From positions 1 to 57,949 of the IMG/VR virus record IMGVR_UViG_3300010158_000078: a stretch of DNA of 57,949 nt. One strand, given 5' to 3'. Positions 34,490 to 48,838 of the stretch are shown here, in pieces; the stretch's first letter is position 1, and every line of letters starts with the position of its first letter. This stretch comes from a virus. Lineage: Duplodnaviria; Caudoviricetes. The notes below the pieces were generated by a model. The model did no database searches. It had not been told where the DNA came from and saw nothing but the letters and a program-made list of their open reading frames with translations. A program made the position numbers and the translations under genes.

Positions 34490-36888
34490 TAGAATAGCAT
34501 TTCGTTATTATTATGTGTCTCCCCGTCCTTCTCGATGAACTTGATCCATCTGCCGTTGTTATCTCTACCCTCAAGAGGTGTTACACCAGTCTTATATAAT
34601 CCAAAAGCTATAAGCCACTTGTAGAATATGGTCCTACTTATTGTCATCTTAGCCTTTGGAGCAAAGTCTGGATTGTCTTGAATAAAGTCAATATATAGGT
34701 CTTGCTTGTATATAAGCTCACCATTTCTTAGCTTGTCATTATGAGGTACTCCATCTATCATACCACACCACTCGATAAACTCATGGCATGTCTCAGCAGA
34801 TAGCTTACGGATCTTAAGGTTAACAAACTCACTCTTAACAAGTCCAGTGCTTAGGTAAGCCTTAAGGTTGTTGATCATGTAGTTGTCAAACTTACACCAC
34901 TCCTCCTCATCCCAGTCATTGAATAGCATATATCCAAACTCTATTTCAGGAGTGAACTCCTTGCTATAGAACTGCTTAAACTCCAGCTCCCACTTACGTC
35001 TCTCGAATGAGTTACCCTTACCCTTGATAGCATAGTTGGTTGTAATAACAATCTTTGGAGAACGATTAAAAGGTAATTTAATAGCGTCCTTGTTCTTTTT
35101 CTCTGTTGTTATACCTTCTGTAATAACACTGAATAACCTCTCGAAGTCAAAGTGTTTCTTTACGTCATCAAAGCAAAGTACTTGAGTACCTACGTTTACA
35201 TCAGAATAATTAAACTGTTTATCAAAAGTAAATGCCTTACCATCTATTGTTACTGCTCTTTTTATTTTACTAATAGCGTTAACAAACAGCCCCTTGCCAG
35301 TCCCACCCTCTGGGTTATCTGATATAACCTCATCATTAAGAATTATCGCTGGGCAGTAGGATGGTTTCTTGTACCCATGCATAAGAAAACCTATGGTGCT
35401 CTGCATCGACTTAACCCTCTGAGGATCATCACCTGATACATTTGATATAAATACTGAGAAGTCACAATCCATAACATCACATACTGCAAAGTCTCTATCC
35501 ACGACCTGATCCTTCCAGATGTAACCACCTAGATCGATATAGTCAATAATGTTAACGCTATCTTTTGTAACCATCACAGCACAGTTATTATAGTAAAGGT
35601 AAGCCGTATTCGCATCGTCCTCAACGAAGTAAATATCAACTGACGAAAGCAAAGATAGGAAATCTTCTTTGAAAAAACGTGTTTTATCTGCAAAATAATT
35701 ATAAACAGACAGATCCTCAGTGTTTTCAAGGTACTTAAGCACAAAATCTTTAATCTCTCCCTCCGATGTGTTGTCAATAAGGTTGTTTGTAACCTTAACA
35801 AACACAAAAGTCTTGGTGTTCTCTGGGTAGAACTTATAGAACCCATTATCCTCAAGGAACTCCTTGAACAGATAGTGAACTATATTGATCGCTCCCTTAT
35901 CACTCTTGGTCCAGAACCGTTTCACATCGCTATCGACCTGCTCTAGGACCGAGTCAATGATCGACTCGTCTATGTCAGACATTTCGTTCTTAAGCTGCTT
36001 GGCTGTCGATCCCGACTTTACCTTTTGCCTGAGCTGTGACATACGACCATTATCCTCATAGTACTTTGTTCCGAACTTATGGGTATGGCTGTATGCCGAA
36101 TTTATGGTTGTCTTAATCTCTAATAATGGGAAGTCTATAGACTCGAACTGCCCCATGATATATTCTGCCAGTGATTTATTAATTCCATAATCATTAAACG
36201 CAGCAGCAAGTATGTACACGTTGTGGTTACGCTCACCATCAATGAGTCCGTAACGCTTTGTCCACCAAGACATTAGTATGTCAACGATCTTGTTCTCATT
36301 TGTGATTGGTATTGTAGGAACCGATGTGGCTCTGTCCATCTCCTTGTACTCAGTCTTGTCAATGGTATCCCAGATCACTGAGTCATTGTTGATGTATATG
36401 TTCTTATCATAAGACTCGTAGCAAACCCTTGATATGTTCTTAGATGTCTTATCGAAGTACTCAGAATTGAAATGGTTCTGTAGTGAGTTGAAGTAGTTAA
36501 CATGGTTCTCTATATCAGCTGGAACCTTCACAAGAACCTTTAGCCCATCGCCAGATGGAGATACGAATACAGAGTAAACATACTGATCATTAGATAGATT
36601 TTTCTTCTGATCTAGCATTGCCTTCTTGCTTGGGTATCCATCAAAGTCTAGACATATAATACCACTATGCTCAGCGATAGCGTTATCGGCTCTCTTGGTG
36701 AATGTTCCAGAGAAACAGATAGCAGGAAGTTCCTTCTTGATCTCGTTACGAGAAGACTTATCCTGCTCCTGCTGGATGCGTTCAACGATTTCCTTGCTAG
36801 ATCCAGTCTGTATTCTGTTAAGCACCACATCTATATGTCTATAGAATGGTGTTGATGTGTCTCTGATATTCTTAAATATTGTTATCAT
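34489..36888 (-). CDS. primase-helicase (BT4734/VirE N-terminal-like primase + PriCT + SF3 helicase)
   Basis: KKELPAICFSGTF, CLDFD, VSPSGDGLKV, GERNHN, Walker A GGTGKGL and Walker B CFDD. Confidence 0.85.
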   Translation of the reverse strand: MITIFKNIRDTSTPFYRHIDVVLNRIQTGSSKEIVERIQQEQDKSSRNEIKKELPAICFSGTFTKRADNAIAEHSGIICLDFDGYPSKKAMLDQKKNLSNDQYVYSVFVSPSGDGLKVLVKVPADIENHVNYFNSLQNHFNSEYFDKTSKNISRVCYESYDKNIYINNDSVIWDTIDKTEYKEMDRATSVPTIPITNENKIVDILMSWWTKRYGLIDGERNHNVYILAAAFNDYGINKSLAEYIMGQFESIDFPLLEIKTTINSAYSHTHKFGTKYYEDNGRMSQLRQKVKSGSTAKQLKNEMSDIDESIIDSVLEQVDSDVKRFWTKSDKGAINIVHYLFKEFLEDNGFYKFYPENTKTFVFVKVTNNLIDNTSEGEIKDFVLKYLENTEDLSVYNYFADKTRFFKEDFLSLLSSVDIYFVEDDANTAYLYYNNCAVMVTKDSVNIIDYIDLGGYIWKDQVVDRDFAVCDVMDCDFSVFISNVSGDDPQRVKSMQSTIGFLMHGYKKPSYCPAIILNDEVISDNPEGGTGKGLFVNAISKIKRAVTIDGKAFTFDKQFNYSDVNVGTQVLCFDDVKKHFDFERLFSVITEGITTEKKNKDAIKLPFNRSPKIVITTNYAIKGKGNSFERRKWELEFKQFYSKEFTPEIEFGYMLFNDWDEEEWCKFDNYMINNLKAYLSTGLVKSEFVNLKIRKLSAETCHEFIEWCGMIDGVPHNDKLRNGELIYKQDLYIDFIQDNPDFAPKAKMTISRTIFYKWLIAFGLYKTGVTPLEGRDNNGRWIKFIEKDGETHNNNEMLF

Positions 36889-39026: not shown

Positions 39027-39290
39027 TTAGAATGGAAGTCCGTCTTGTACCTCTTCTTGTTTAGTAGGTGCCTGAGGCTGTCCTTGTTGCTTTGGTTCAA
39101 AAGTATCAAGCTCCATGTAGTGCTTGCCTTCTTTCGAAGTTTTTACCTGCAAATTCACCCATCCGTTCTTGTCGTGCTTTCTTAAAAATGCCGATGCATC
39201 CTCCACCTTAATACTAATGTTTCCCACCACGAAGTCAGGTGCTTTCTCGCTTCTTTTAAAGATAAATCCATCTGCAAAAATTTTGTCCAT
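39027..39290 (-). CDS. ssb: putative single-stranded DNA-binding protein
   Basis: 87 aa, beta-rich, Q/P linker and acidic C-terminal DGLPF tail. Confidence 0.65.
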   Translation of the reverse strand: MDKIFADGFIFKRSEKAPDFVVGNISIKVEDASAFLRKHDKNGWVNLQVKTSKEGKHYMELDTFEPKQQGQPQAPTKQEEVQDGLPF

Positions 39291-39354
39291 AATACATTTA
39301 ATTTTAATTGTTAATAATTACTCCTCGTGTGAGGTCACTGATCAGTAGTTGTGT

Positions 39355-39435
39355 TGGTCAAGTGGTGGGTAATGCTCCCACGACCTTCAGGGTTAATTAC
39401 TTCCTAATGTTCTAACTAACTGAACTACACTTGAC
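39355..39435 (-). ncRNA. tRNA-like (cloverleaf) RNA with non-canonical loops
   Basis: GTCAAGTG TA GTTC-AGTTAGTTA-GAAC A TTAGG-AAGTAATTAAC-CCTGA AGGTC GTGGG-AGCATTA-CCCAC CACTTGACCA: all four stems pair with tRNA spacing. Confidence 0.75.
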
Positions 39436-39437
39436 TT

Positions 39438-39531
39438 ATTCCAACCTTGGTCTTTCAGGGTTACTGGTTTGTGAATACTACTATTAACCCTTTTTCGTTT
39501 TTATACATCACCTAACAGCGAGCATTGGAAT
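39438..39531 (-). ncRNA. candidate structured RNA 5' of the tRNA mimic
   Basis: Closing stem ATTCCAAT/GTTGGAAT and inner stem AGGGTTA/TAACCCT; starts just after a -7 box. Confidence 0.45.
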
Positions 39532-39539
39532 TATCTTCG

Positions 39540-39547
39540 CAAATATA
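39540..39547 (-). promoter_or_regulatory. -7 promoter box (TATATTTG) for ncRNA-tRNA-like-ssb transcript
   Basis: TAnnTTTG right after the exonuclease stop codon. Confidence 0.6.
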
Positions 39548-39552
39548 ATAAA

Positions 39553-40284
39553 TTAAAGTGTATCTTGTACAAAATAATTGTTTATTTCTTCAGTTTTATT
39601 TTTACCGAAGAACTTATTGTACACCTCACACGCTTGCTCGACCTTATTCTTACCTCCCATAACGAAGTCCTCTGAAGGTTCAAACACTCCTAATTCTTTA
39701 GTGGTACTATCTATTACATAAAAAACCAATGGTTTGTCAAACAAGTGTTGGTAAATATAACATTGACTATCATAATTATATTTCTTAGCTGACCATTTGA
39801 AATCTTTAATGCTAGACGTGGTTTTAATATCAATTAAAATTTCATCTGTAACTATATCTGCCTTACCTTTAAATGGTAAACCGAATAACTCACCAATAGC
39901 TGGCTCTTCGTATATGTTACCATTTCTATATATATTCTCGTAAAAATGAAAATTAGATTTTATAGTTTTAACCATTTCCTCGACATCATCTACCTCATTC
40001 TTTAGCAATAATATATCCTTACCGCTCTTAGAAACCGCATCTTTGTAGATATTCGTAGATCTTGTAGAAGCCTCAACAACTTCAAAATCTATTAGTTTAT
40101 GAGGTTCTAAAATAGCCGTGTGAAAATAACTTCCTCTAAGCATAGGGACTGTAGGAGTTTGTTTAATTCCAAACATTTTTGGGTTTGACAATAATACACC
40201 TACAGCACTATTAGATAGAAATTTATTACCGAAATCACCATAATAAGATTCGTCTTTTCTTAATTCTTCAATTGTATTTTTCAT
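39553..40284 (-). CDS. PD-(D/E)XK exonuclease (RecE/DUF3799-like)
   Basis: FLSNS, GSYFHTAILEP, KGKADI, IDIKTT and YNYDSQCYIY motifs. Confidence 0.8.
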   Translation of the reverse strand: MKNTIEELRKDESYYGDFGNKFLSNSAVGVLLSNPKMFGIKQTPTVPMLRGSYFHTAILEPHKLIDFEVVEASTRSTNIYKDAVSKSGKDILLLKNEVDDVEEMVKTIKSNFHFYENIYRNGNIYEEPAIGELFGLPFKGKADIVTDEILIDIKTTSSIKDFKWSAKKYNYDSQCYIYQHLFDKPLVFYVIDSTTKELGVFEPSEDFVMGGKNKVEQACEVYNKFFGKNKTEEINNYFVQDTL

Positions 40285-47201: not shown

Positions 47202-47466
47202 AATTAAAATGTGTTTTGTGTCGGTTCGACATGGTTAGTAATGTAATCGTTTAGTCTCTCTATGCTATCCGCATGGTAGGTGGTGCCCTGCACCTTTGCC
47301 GTGTACATGGTACGTGTTACTCTTGTGTAACTTGTCTGTGTGTAGGTTCTAATTTCCAAAGATATAATCTATAAGAGTTAATAATTGGCTTAGTACTATT
47401 ACTGCTATAAGCAGGAAGGTGGCCAATATACAGCCACCTTGAATTTCGTTTCGTTTCATGATATAA

Positions 47467-47519
47467 AGTGTTTCGTCGTTCTGCGACTCATCAGCATGAG
47501 TAACACACTCATGGACACT
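47467..47519 (-). ncRNA. type III hammerhead ribozyme
   Basis: AGTGTC^CATGAGT-GTGTT-ACTCATG CTGATGA GTCG-CAGAA-CGAC GAAACACT: intact CUGAUGA and GAAA core, GUC cleavage triplet, three paired stems. Confidence 0.92.
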
Positions 47520-47522
47520 GTC

Positions 47523-47630
47523 GTTAACAAAAGAATTGTAAGCACGTCACAATCGTTCTGTTAACCTGAGCCAAGCCTTCCGACCTGAAACCCGCAAACT
47601 AATGTTTTTAAACACGTCTGCCTGACTATG
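47523..47630 (-). ncRNA. candidate structured RNA between early promoter P2 and the hammerhead
   Basis: Hairpins GCAGAC…GTTTGC, CAGGTC-GGAA-GGCTTG and GTTAACAGAA…TTTTGTTAAC. Confidence 0.45.
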
Positions 47631-47643
47631 TATTTTGATGAAG

Positions 47644-47698
47644 CAAATGTATGTTGCTTTTTTCAATCTACCAAAACTTTAACAAAACTTTAACATTT
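47644..47698 (-). promoter_or_regulatory. early promoter P2
   Basis: TTTG (47672-47675), 20-nt spacer, TACATTTG (47644-47651); upstream 21-nt element identical to that of P1. Confidence 0.85.
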
Positions 47699-47706
47699 GC
47701 TAAAGA

Positions 47707-47858
47707 AAATACTAGTTGTCAATTTTAATCTTCCATAAGTTATTGTTATCATTAACGCCCTCTTCCTTTATGTGACCTTATCCGTTTCCGAGTGGGTTTC
47801 TTTAATGTTTCCAAACCTAACCTGTTTGATTTATTCTACAACTAGTATTTCAAAGAAC
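47707..47858 (-). ncRNA. candidate structured RNA with boxA-like site between P1 and P2
   Basis: Perfect 13-bp closing stem AAATACTAGTTGT/ACAACTAGTATTT, internal hairpins, GTTCTTTGA at the 5' side. Confidence 0.5.
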
Positions 47859-47878
47859 GTTGTCTCATTTTGACAGTA

Positions 47879-47933
47879 CAAACATACGACGGCTATTTGA
47901 CCTGTGCAAATTTTTAACAAAACTTTAACATTT
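47879..47933 (-). promoter_or_regulatory. early promoter P1
   Basis: TTTG (47907-47910), 20-nt spacer, TATGTTTG (47879-47886); upstream AAATGTTAAAGTTTTGTTAAA element. Confidence 0.85.
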
Positions 47934-48089
47934 CACTGGACTTAGCAGTTACTACCTTATTGACTTTGTAATAATATATGCTTACTCCTATATATAAAGA
48001 AGTTAAACGATTGTTTAATATTCGGGAAGATTATAAGGTTATAAGAATGTTGGGGAGTGTTATCCCCCGTCACAGCCCTTGAATACTCC

Positions 48090-48410
48090 TAAAACGCATT
48101 TTAAAGCCATTTCCACCACGATTATATTCTAAGACGATATAATATATCACCTCCTTCGAGTTCGTTGCTTAAACGCAAAACGCCAGTAAACATAAGGCTT
48201 TGCTTCTGCGATAAATCTATTGCTTGATAGGTTTTGTCTATCATTGTTTGTGTCTATAGTTGTCGAATATACTATATACCTATAAAACGCATTTTAAAGC
48301 GATTTAAGACACTTTTATGTCTCTGTCGTACTTAGATACCAATCCTTAGAGTTTGTTGAAAATCCAGTGGGGATAGGCTCTCGCGAGGTTTTTTACTAAC
48401 GATTGTTAGT
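48090..48410. repeat. diverged ~190-bp tandem units
   Basis: TAAAACGCATTTTAAAGC identical at 48090-48107 and 48283-48300; each followed by TCCTT(C/A)GAGTT(C/T)GTTG and CCAGT…GGCT blocks. Confidence 0.65.
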
Positions 48411-48432: not shown

Positions 48433-48695
48433 CATAGTATTATACTGTCTGTTATATTATACCAATTACTTTGTTATACATAGTACTGACGGCTCGGTCA
48501 GTCACTCAAGGTTTATACCAACTACCTTGCATCGCATAGTACCGCACATCGCAATACTAACTAACGTTTGTTAGTCTCTCTCTCGCCATAGCATAGTACA
48601 TTGCATAGCATAGTAGTGGGCACGGCCAAGCCATAGCACCAAGCCATAGCCATAGCACACGCGTTCACACAGACACCGACCTAGCCACGCCATAG
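48433..48695 (+). repeat. strand-polarised CATAG repeat array (possible packaging/terminus region)
   Basis: 11 CATAG copies, all on one strand, in about 260 non-coding bp. Confidence 0.7.
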
Positions 48696-48838
48696 CTAGG
48701 CTCCCGAAAAGCCAAAAAAACTAGAGGAAATGAACGATTTTGTACCCCCCGTAGCTGATTTGAAGTCGTTTTCTTTTGGAGCCCCGTCTCGCAGAATCGC
48801 CCTATAACCCCAACACTCTACATATCTAATATATTTAT

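What the first reader, a model, noticed from the sequence alone, without database searches (positions are those of the whole stretch)
47467..47933. Candidate new system: promoter-ncRNA-promoter-ncRNA-ribozyme cascade releasing early small RNAs
Seen, in transcription order: P1, boxA-like GTTCTTTGA, a ~145-nt RNA closed by a 13-bp stem, P2, a ~110-nt multi-hairpin RNA, the hammerhead, then early ORFs. P1 and P2 share an identical 21-nt upstream element. The same logic (promoter, structured RNA, processing device, gene) recurs at 39547-39290 with a tRNA mimic as the device. Inference: the phage devotes its best-consensus, probably first-transcribed promoters to discrete structured RNAs (about 125 nt from P2, up to about 360 nt from P1) freed by self-cleavage. 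These could be anti-defence decoys, antitoxin mimics or antitermination RNAs.
Basis: inference. Interest (0 to 1): 0.8.

Follow-up and report, generated by a model that had tools for sequence, protein, structure and literature searches.

The report
Phage early leader ending in hammerhead
A freshwater Flavobacteria-type phage starts its early genes from two strong promoters, a ribosomal-RNA-style anti-termination signal, a folded leader RNA and a self-cutting hammerhead just before the first gene, a layout shared by related phages that may help explain why phages carry such ribozymes.

Summary
On the minus strand there are two perfect Bacteroidetes-type promoters, P1 at 47910-47879 and P2 at 47675-47644. 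Each is preceded by the same 21-mer. A boxA-like site follows P1. A perfect 13-bp inverted repeat, a well-folded P2 leader and a canonical type III hammerhead follow, with cleavage between 47514 and 47513, 54 nt before the first early ATG.

- **Hammerhead:** it recurs in 29 other viral or metagenome contigs, with compensatory changes in stems I and III. An ATG lies 7-17 nt behind it in 26 of 26 non-redundant cases.
- **boxA:** a matrix built from Flavobacteriales rRNA-leader sites ranks it 2nd of 115,864 window positions.
- **P2 leader:** it holds a two-hairpin module shared with 7 other phage contigs, with strong covariation and no Rfam match.
- **P1-P2 RNA:** this stretch (boxA plus the 13-bp-stem domain) is missing from close relatives' contigs and folds no better than shuffles.

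My reading is an rRNA-operon-like early control region whose swappable leader cassettes are cut off by the ribozyme. I class it as a new variant of a known kind: a hammerhead before the first early gene was described for haloviruses HF1 and HF2.

The parts
47913..47933 (-). Upstream 21-mer, copy 1. It is A/T-rich with phased GTTAAA units, directly upstream of the P1 -33 box, and looks like an UP element or a factor site.
   Evidence: Exact repeat, 0 expected. Related GTTAAAGTTTTG elements lie upstream of promoters in L006, L013, L260 and L014.
47879..47910 (-). P1, a Bacteroidetes-type promoter (TTTG, 20 nt, TATGTTTG). The likely start is near 47872.
   Evidence: The -7 box and the first ~25 transcribed letters are conserved in L003, L004, L013 and L271.
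47843..47860 (-). rRNA-type boxA (core GTTCTTTGA at 47857-47849).
   Evidence: A matrix from 9 Flavobacteriales rrn-leader sites scores it 18.8 bits, rank 2 of 115,864 positions. It matches 10 of 11 letters of GYTCTTTAANA (PMC5725501, passage seen).
47699..47857 (-). Dispensable cassette: boxA core plus a domain closed by the 13-bp inverted repeat (arms 47850-47838 and 47719-47707).
   Evidence: Inverted repeat. The segment is replaced by 12-13 letters in contigs of runs X3 (depth 13.8) and X5 (record 17, 620 nt). Fold z -1.52.
47678..47698 (-). Upstream 21-mer, copy 2, in front of P2.
47644..47675 (-). P2, a Bacteroidetes-type promoter (TTTG, 20 nt, TACATTTG). The likely start is near 47636.
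   Evidence: Relatives' contigs stop matching at 47633/47634. Similar promoters lie 154-161 nt before the cleavage site in L010 and L011.
47568..47621 (-). Two abutting hairpins of the P2 leader (the 'R1 module'): H1 at 47621-47594 with an A-rich loop, and H2 at 47593-47568 with a GNRA loop.
   Evidence: 8 sequences, 96.5% of cells paired, 12 of 18 pairs changed on both sides, 0 of 500 shuffles reach this, slid controls give 3 or fewer. The model scores the window 66.8 bits. No Rfam match at E<=10.
47523..47565 (-). H3, a long hairpin found only in this phage's leader, with no U-tract behind it.
   Evidence: It is absent from the other 7 module-bearing leaders.
47467..47519 (-). Type III hammerhead ribozyme, cutting after GTC between 47514 and 47513.
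   Evidence: In 24 distinct homologues, 11 of 18 pairs changed on both sides and 0 of 500 shuffles reach the covariation score. Relatives score up to 49.6 bits.
47349..47459 (-). First early ORF (36 aa, hydrophobic). Its ATG lies 7 nt after hammerhead stem III.
   Evidence: No Pfam family. The ORF is swapped in relatives exactly at the ribozyme's 3' end.

Best explanation
This is the main early control region of an uncultivated freshwater podophage of Flavobacteriales-type hosts. It is laid out like the host's rRNA operon control region.

- Two tandem consensus promoters, each with a phased A/T-rich upstream element, fire leftward.
- P1 transcripts carry an rRNA-type boxA about 20 nt after the -7 box. 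I infer that it loads host Nus factors, so that the long untranslated leader and the early operon are read without premature termination.
- P2 transcripts carry a conserved two-hairpin RNA module.
- A type III hammerhead then cuts both transcripts at one place. Every early mRNA therefore begins with the same 54-nt ribozyme fold and a 5'-OH, 7 nt before the first AUG, whatever leader cassette lies upstream.
- The leader (about 122 nt from P2, about 358 nt from P1) is released with a 2',3'-cyclic phosphate end.

Shown: the sequence elements, their conservation, covariation, and the cassette-like exchange at the promoter and ribozyme borders. Inferred: promoter activity, Nus loading, cleavage in vivo, and what the released leader does.
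For: Host and virus type:
- The primase is closest to Flavobacterium, Cellulophaga and Polaribacter phages.
- A 59.7-kb related contig sits in a Flavobacteriales MAG, with GroEL 62% and primase 66% identical.

Promoters:
-.

boxA:
- 9 of 12 rrn leaders from 8 of 10 Flavobacteriales genomes hold the motif within 300 nt of the 16S gene. The shuffle mean is 1.1 and the maximum 5.
- The matrix ranks the P1 site 2nd of 115,864 positions.
- 5 of 28 P1-type start contexts score 10 bits or more, against 0.23% of 3000 random 80-nt windows. MW202828 scores 20.0 bits.

Hammerhead:
- The exact 25-mer occurs in 12 IMG/VR contigs and 17 metagenome contigs.
- The next ATG lies 7-17 nt after stem III in 26 of 26 non-redundant cases, and the ORF has 36 or more codons in 25 of 26.
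- Covariation is shown.

Leader module:
-.

Cassette borders:
- Relatives' contigs break similarity at 47633/47634, 47519/47508, 47466 and 47698/47858.

Precedent:
- In HF1/HF2 a hammerhead lies 13 nt before the first early ORF, and the mapped 5' end is within 3 nt of the cut (PMC3088659, passages seen).
Against: - No transcript data of any kind exist, so starts, cleavage and read-through are unproven.
- The boxA cassette is absent from close relatives and from about half of the P1-type leaders, so it is not essential.
- The loose boxA pattern alone occurs 70 times in the window.
- The best matrix hit lies inside the primase gene at 36291, not in a leader.
- Full-consensus promoters were found within 600 nt upstream in only 12 of 26 loci.
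- In minimum-energy folds of the uncut P2 transcript, the 5-bp stem III is replaced by other pairings, so efficient cleavage is not assured.
- Rfam scores the window's ribozyme below its gathering score.
- Cutting the RNA between boxA and the polymerase might undo a Nus tether. From recall, the rRNA leader is also cut, by RNase III.
Confidence: 0.55

Rival explanations
1. One reading: the leaders are the product. The ribozyme gives them a defined 3' end, and they act in trans early in infection as decoys for defence systems, antitoxin mimics or regulators. The mRNA trimming is secondary.
For: - The two-hairpin module is under selection as RNA.
- It lies upstream of a type III hammerhead in 7 of 8 cases.
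- Leaders are exchanged as cassettes between conserved promoter and ribozyme borders, a turnover typical of accessory loci.
- In the predicted fold, the 5' and 3' ends of the cut P2 leader pair with each other.
Against: - There is no RNA evidence.
- There is no resemblance to any known decoy, repeat or antitoxin RNA: Rfam gives no match at E<=10.
- The P1-specific RNA is dispensable and unstructured.
- A cis role explains the fixed promoter-proximal position equally well.
Confidence: 0.2
2. The two-hairpin module is a cis-acting, polymerase-modifying antiterminator RNA of the HK022 put kind. Each early promoter would then have its own anti-termination device: boxA after P1 and the module after P2.
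For: - Two directly abutting hairpins of about 54 nt begin about 15 nt after the P2 start.
- In L013 the same split is seen, with boxA after the first promoter and the module after the second.
- The put comparison is recalled, not tested.
Against: - There is no sequence or model comparison with put RNA.
- A ribozyme cutting 50-110 nt downstream would sever the tether to the polymerase.
- Only weak terminator candidates exist on the minus strand of the early operon: 3 of the 8 sites found, against 3.2 expected.
Confidence: 0.1
3. Much of the pattern works at the DNA level. The 21-mers and the ACTAGT-centred 13-bp arms would be binding sites for a phage or host regulator, or the ends of a small inserted element. 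The leader RNA between them would have no function of its own.
For: - Each arm contains the palindrome ACTAGT.
- The arm-bounded segment is an insertion or deletion relative to close relatives, flanked by a GACAAC direct repeat.
- The interior has no significant fold.
Against: - It does not explain the covariation in the P2 leader or in the ribozyme.
- There is no other copy of the arm in the window.
- The interior found no similar sequence in the 132 loci held.
Confidence: 0.1
4. The leader is a sensor that gates the ribozyme. Alternative pairing of the leader with the stem III strand would decide whether the early mRNA is cut, as in an allosteric ribozyme.
For: In the folds, the 5' strand of stem III pairs elsewhere. 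Stem III has only 5 pairs.
Against: - The competing pairings are not conserved. Stem III letters differ among relatives, while the leader's conserved ATAG block does not covary with them.
- The predicted fold has an ensemble frequency of 0.02.
Confidence: 0.05

Closest known systems
HHphage hammerhead of haloarchaeal viruses HF1 and HF2 (Perreault et al. 2011, PMC3088659; passages seen)
   Same: The ribozyme lies a few nucleotides (13 there, 7 here) before the start codon of the first ORF of an early polycistronic transcript. There, the transcript's 5' end was mapped to the cleavage site.
   Different: That is an archaeal virus with a variant hammerhead. No tandem promoters, boxA or conserved upstream leader RNA were described in the passages I saw.
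Bacterial rRNA operon control region (tandem promoters, upstream A/T elements, leader boxA, leader removed by processing)
   Same: Two tandem strong promoters about 235 nt apart, compared with about 165 nt in the Flavobacteriales MAG's rrn. There is a boxA of the same sequence family soon after a promoter, and the leader is cut away from the product.
   Different: It drives phage protein genes, not rRNA. The cut is made by a ribozyme, not (from recall) by RNase III. Only P1 has boxA, and that boxA is dispensable in relatives.
Lambdoid nut sites and the HK022 put RNAs (recalled)
   Same: These are early-leader RNA signals that make the host polymerase resistant to termination. Lambda nut also contains a boxA.
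   Different: I looked for neither a boxB hairpin nor an N-like gene. The boxA here resembles the host rRNA type, and put similarity is only architectural.
Hammerhead arrays between genes of prophage-like regions, and RAGATH motifs found near such ribozymes (PMC3088659 and PMC6765202, passages seen; RAGATH papers seen as a search listing only)
   Same: Ribozymes that process phage polycistronic RNAs, with conserved unexplained RNA motifs nearby. Relatives of this phage show further hammerhead candidates between early ORFs.
   Different: Here there is a single ribozyme at the head of the operon. The neighbouring motif matches no Rfam family, RAGATH included. The 25-mer is absent from 185,579 species genomes.
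RiboJ-type synthetic ribozyme insulators (recalled, not looked up)
   Same: A self-cleaving ribozyme between promoter and coding region removes a variable 5' leader, so that expression is independent of the upstream context.
   Different: Those are engineered parts. This would be a natural counterpart with functional-looking cargo in the discarded leader.

Membership tests
Hammerhead ribozyme, type III | Conserved core CTGANGA and GAAA, and a cleavage triplet NTH (not G) after the 16.1-15.1 pair | tested here: met
   CTGATGA at 47494-47488, GAAA at 47474-47471, GTC at 47516-47514. Relatives have GTA in 17 and GTC in 9 of 26.
Hammerhead ribozyme, type III | Three helices with stems I and II closed by loops and stem III open, supported by covariation | tested here: met
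   folds all three. Across 24 rows, stem I has 6 of 7 pairs and stem III 5 of 7 pairs changed on both sides. Stem II is invariant by how the set was selected, but it differs while still pairing in L102 and L257.
Hammerhead ribozyme, type III | Rfam RF00008 score at or above the gathering score (48.5 bits) | tested here: not met
   The window scores 27.6 bits with a misaligned stem I. Relatives score 32.9-49.6 bits. Six of the 9 loci searched gave a hit at E<=1, and one (L008) is above the cut-off.
Hammerhead ribozyme, type III | Self-cleavage activity | not testable with these tools
   This needs in vitro transcription. No RNA run is listed.
Bacteroidetes primary-sigma promoter (consensus recalled: -33 TTTG, -7 TAnnTTTG, about 19-21 nt apart) | Both boxes at the right spacing | tested here: met
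   P1 and P2 have N20. The same pattern lies upstream of 16S genes in the Flavobacteriales MAG.
Bacteroidetes primary-sigma promoter | Transcription starts a few nt downstream of the -7 box | not testable with these tools
   There are no RNA data. The only indirect hint is that similarity to relatives ends at 47633/47634.
boxA (NusB-NusE site of rRNA-type antitermination) | Sequence of the boxA family, as used by the host lineage's rRNA leaders | tested here: met
   Matrix rank 2 of 115,864 at 18.8 bits. It matches 10 of 11 letters of GYTCTTTAANA.
boxA (NusB-NusE site of rRNA-type antitermination) | Promoter-proximal position in the transcript, conserved among relatives | tested here: inconclusive
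   It is present in 5 of 28 start contexts at 10 bits or more, and in MW202828. It is absent from the closest relatives' contigs.
boxA (NusB-NusE site of rRNA-type antitermination) | Binds NusB-NusE and confers terminator read-through | not testable with these tools
   This needs binding and read-through assays.
Trans-acting phage small RNA released by processing | A discrete, stable RNA species with conserved structure | tested here: inconclusive
   Structure is conserved for the P2 leader core but not for the P1-P2 RNA. Stability is unknown.
tRNA or tRNA-like element (second locus, 39432-39352) | Cloverleaf recognised by tRNA models | tested here: not met
   ARAGORN calls no genes. Rfam gives no hit at E<=10. 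The minimum-energy fold is not a cloverleaf.

The most novel reading that the evidence does not exclude
Bacteroidota phages may keep a 'ribozyme-delimited leader cassette' at the head of their early operon. This would be a fixed strong promoter and a fixed hammerhead framing an exchangeable slot. Different structured RNAs would be loaded into that slot: the two-hairpin module here, and a ~190-nt RNA in many relatives. These RNAs would be made in large amounts in the first minutes of infection and released as free RNAs with cyclic-phosphate ends, acting on the host's polymerase, defence or repair systems. In this reading the hammerhead's biological role is to manufacture early non-coding RNAs and to uncouple them from the mRNA.
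Probability: 0.2. Interest if true: 0.85.

Novelty: new variant of a known kind. Interest (0 to 1): 0.6.

Why it matters
The biological roles of genomic self-cleaving ribozymes in bacteria and phages are called 'largely elusive' in the 2019 review (PMC6765202, passage seen). This locus and its 25 non-redundant relatives give a uniform and testable context. The ribozyme is always 7-17 nt before the first early start codon. It lies behind a consensus promoter and a structured leader, and it sits at the border of recombination cassettes.

The region also gives the first sequence-level case I know of for a phage of Bacteroidota copying the host's rRNA-leader boxA. My two literature searches on this found nothing on it, but subscription journals are not covered. 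It also adds a new covarying RNA motif that is absent from Rfam 15. Together these could open up early-transcription control in a phage group where promoters, translation signals and anti-termination are barely studied.

Tried and rejected
- **Direct similarity:** blastn of 47300-48100 against 50,697 phage records found no match.
- **Rfam:** at gathering scores there are no hits in the whole window. At E<=1 over the window, only the hammerhead appears.
- **MW202828:** its orthologous region has a promoter and a boxA-like site, but no hammerhead by Rfam.
- **Close relatives by protein:** the 111-aa early ORF found only one IMG/VR locus, L003. It has a P1-like promoter and boxA but no hammerhead.
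- **Degenerate pattern scans:** of 137 pattern matches, my simple parser accepted 35 as closed-stem type III ribozymes. The rest were not examined further. The TAGGAA pattern and the reverse pattern together added only L257 to the leader-module set. Most hits looked like chance.
- **Model R1:** it found no member beyond its 8 training sequences in 198 sources. One further hit, L106, had E 0.4. L199-L257 were searched only with nhmmer, not with the model.
- **Sequencing runs:** no RNA holder is listed, so nothing can be said about expression. Table 3 left 31 differences unshown, so I could not test covariation within the population.
- **G001:C65:** the contig ends break in the control region, so that relative gave no leader.
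- **The ~190-nt leader RNA of other contigs:** RNAalifold found compensatory changes in only 7 of 24 pairs, and the covariation term was about 0. L096 was dropped from that alignment because it shares only the first part.
- **Mobile-element idea for the 13-bp-arm segment:** there is no other copy in the window and no similarity in 132 loci.
- **Early ORFs:** none of the 7 has a Pfam family.
- **Papers:** supplements were not opened. Figures S2-S7 of PMC3088659 may list phage hammerheads that bear on novelty.

Full report
**What the window is.** The window is a near-complete IMG/VR virus record: 57,949 bp, linear, 96% complete. Its primase-helicase is closest to Flavobacterium, Cellulophaga, Polaribacter and Nonlabens phages, and to the 60.8-kb podovirus MW202828.1 at 62% identity. 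A 59.7-kb related contig sits in a Flavobacteriales MAG, with GroEL 62% and primase 66% identical. DNA runs that hold the stretch are labelled freshwater. The finding lies in a 2-kb stretch with no ORF above 69 aa. That stretch separates leftward small early ORFs (none of the 7 I searched has a Pfam family) from a rightward GroEL gene. Everything below is on the minus strand.

**The observation.**
- The 21-mer occurs exactly twice, at 47933-47913 and 47698-47678, with none expected by chance.
- Each copy abuts a promoter of the Bacteroidetes type (consensus recalled: -33 TTTG, -7 TAnnTTTG). P1 is at 47910-47879 and P2 at 47675-47644, both with a 20-nt spacer.
- Only seven full matches exist in the window, all on the minus strand.
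- A sigma-70 scan is at chance level, which fits the host assignment.
- The 13-bp inverted repeat is perfect.
- The P2 leader folds far better than shuffles, with z -4.40. The P1-P2 RNA does not, with z -1.52.

**The hammerhead.** Rfam gives only 27.6 bits because it misaligns stem I. Read directly, the element is canonical:
- stem III is AGTGT/ACACT;
- the cut follows GTC, between 47514 and 47513;
- stem I is a 7-8-bp hairpin;
- the cores are CTGATGA and GAAA;
- stem II is a 4-bp hairpin.

The 25-letter core plus stem II occurs in 12 IMG/VR contigs and 17 metagenome contigs, but in none of 185,579 species genomes. With the window this makes 30 instances, 26 of them non-redundant. They show 12 stem I and 14 stem III variants. 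The cleavage triplet is GTA in 17 and GTC in 9. The next ATG lies 7-17 nt after stem III in 26 of 26, and the ORF has 36 or more codons in 25 of 26. On 24 distinct rows, 11 of 18 pairs change on both sides, and 0 of 500 shuffles reach the covariation score. One misaligned row, L258, was kept. In the 9 relatives searched with Rfam, 6 gave RF00008 hits at E<=1, scoring 32.9-49.6 bits, and one was above the cut-off. The ribozyme is real, and its place just before the first early start codon is a family trait.

**The boxA-like site.** I took a Flavobacteriales MAG (G001) and 25 more genomes of its order. Thirteen of the 26 had a 16S hit. Of 12 distinct leaders with upstream sequence, from 10 genomes, 9 leaders (8 genomes) hold G[AT]TC.T[TA].A within 300 nt of the 16S gene. 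The shuffle mean is 1.1 and the maximum 5 of 12. These sites often lie 25-50 nt after a TAnnTTTG box.

A matrix from nine such sites ranks 47860-47843 second of 115,864 window positions, at 18.8 bits with the third at 12.6. The same kind of site follows P1-type starts in L004 (21.7 bits), L003, L265 and L013, which is 5 of 28 contexts at 10 bits or more against 0.23% of random windows. MW202828 scores 20.0 bits. The core matches 10 of 11 letters of the gamma-proteobacterial consensus GYTCTTTAANA (PMC5725501, passage seen). Nus-factor binding remains inferred.

**The leaders.** The P2 leader shares a core with leaders in L010, L011, L012, L013, L102, L257 and L096. The core is two abutting hairpins, H1 at 47621-47594 and H2 at 47593-47568, the second with a GNRA loop.
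- 96.5% of cells pair, against 76% in shuffles.
- 12 of 18 pairs change on both sides.
- 0 of 500 shuffles reach any measure.
- Slid controls give at most 3 such pairs.

The eight sequences represent about six lineages, since L010/L257 and L012/L102 are close pairs. Seven of the eight lie upstream of a type III hammerhead. No Rfam family matches. H3 (47565-47523) is private to this phage.

The P1-P2 RNA behaves differently. Contigs from two runs (X3 at depth 13.8, and X5 record 17, a single 620-nt contig) join 47698 to 47858 with only 12-13 letters between them. Close relatives therefore lack boxA and the whole stem-closed domain. A short GACAAC direct repeat flanks the difference. Other joints fall at 47633/47634, 47519/47508 and 47466. 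These are the P2 start, the ribozyme's 5' edge and the ribozyme's 3' edge, so leaders and first ORFs are exchanged as cassettes between conserved borders. Because these are metagenome contigs laid at 80% likeness or more, some may come from more distant phages.

**Context in relatives.** Other contigs carry different leaders behind the same conserved start region. One example is a ~190-nt RNA in L007, L261, L263, L266, L271, L273 and L274. It is not in Rfam, and its covariation is weak. L006 and L013 repeat the two-promoter layout with a related upstream element. In L003 the leader ends not with a hammerhead but with what looks by eye like a tRNA acceptor/T-arm minihelix just before the ATG. 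ARAGORN does not call it. The window's own 'tRNA mimic' at 39432-39352 fails ARAGORN and Rfam. The idea of interchangeable processing devices therefore stays a lead.

**Mechanism.** I commit to an rRNA-operon-like early control region, at confidence 0.55.
- Tandem strong promoters with phased A/T upstream elements fire leftward.
- boxA protects long untranslated P1 transcripts.
- The ribozyme trims all transcripts to one 5' end: 5'-OH, the 54-nt ribozyme fold, a 7-nt A/U-rich linker, then AUG.
- Expression of the early genes thus becomes independent of whichever leader cassette is present.

The released leader with its covarying module must do something as RNA. It could act in cis on the polymerase, put-like (0.1). 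Data that could separate these do not exist. DNA-level readings (0.1) and a gated ribozyme (0.05) explain less.

**Comparison and novelty.** A hammerhead 13 nt before the first early ORF, with the transcript's 5' end mapped to the cut, is in print for haloviruses HF1 and HF2 (PMC3088659, passages seen). Processing of phage polycistronic RNAs by ribozymes has been proposed, and function is still called elusive (PMC6765202, passages seen). What is new here:
- the bacterial (Bacteroidota-phage) family of such sites;
- the rRNA-type boxA and the tandem-promoter mimicry;
- the Rfam-absent two-hairpin motif;
- the cassette borders.

Searches for prior descriptions found none, within an open-access library only. 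Verdict: real, conserved, a new variant of a known kind, interest 0.6.

Noticed in passing
window 36291-36274 (-): The best match in the whole window to the Flavobacteriales rrn boxA matrix (19.2 bits) lies inside the primase-helicase gene, on the transcribed strand. It may be a second, internal boxA or a chance match.
   Followed up: no
L007, L261, L263, L266, L267, L271, L273, L274 (about 180 nt upstream of their hammerheads): A conserved ~190-nt leader RNA containing a CGAGACC...GGCGG hairpin lies between the conserved start region and the hammerhead in many related contigs. It has no Rfam match and only weak covariation, with 7 of 24 pairs.
   Followed up: partly
L003 2860-2912: In the one IMG/VR relative found through the 111-aa early ORF, the ~390-nt leader ends just before the first ATG. 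The ending is not a hammerhead but a stretch that by eye forms a tRNA acceptor/T-arm minihelix with a canonical-looking T loop. ARAGORN calls nothing.
   Followed up: partly
window 39290-39573 (-): A full-consensus promoter (N22) is followed by a ~250-nt leader before the ATG at 39289. The drawn cloverleaf at 39432-39352 ends in CCA but is not recognised by ARAGORN or Rfam.
   Followed up: partly
L006, L007, L009, L011, L013 (250-900 nt downstream of the first hammerhead): Relatives show further sub-threshold hammerhead candidates (type I, HH9, RAGATH-1-like) between small early ORFs. The window has none at E<=1.
   Followed up: no
window 48083-48318 and 48457-48700: Upstream of P1 there are two 43-nt direct repeats (77% alike) and several short tandem-like repeat families. 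Relatives' contigs pile up at 48081-48221 with many differences, so this block is widely shared among related phages.
   Followed up: no
whole window: All 7 full-consensus Bacteroidetes promoters are on the minus strand, and none is on the plus strand that carries the structural genes. Late transcription probably uses another promoter type.
   Followed up: no
L096 899-1010 and about 1320-1400: This contig has the two-hairpin module without a type III hammerhead behind it. The letters after its GTC are the same 14 as those that follow the cut of a type I hammerhead 400 nt downstream. This suggests a duplicated 5'-UTR head.
   Followed up: no
G001:C65 (L275, L281-L283): A 59.7-kb contig binned in a Flavobacteriales MAG is a relative of this phage (GroEL 62%, primase 66%). 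The host link rests on binning only, and the contig breaks inside the control region.
   Followed up: partly
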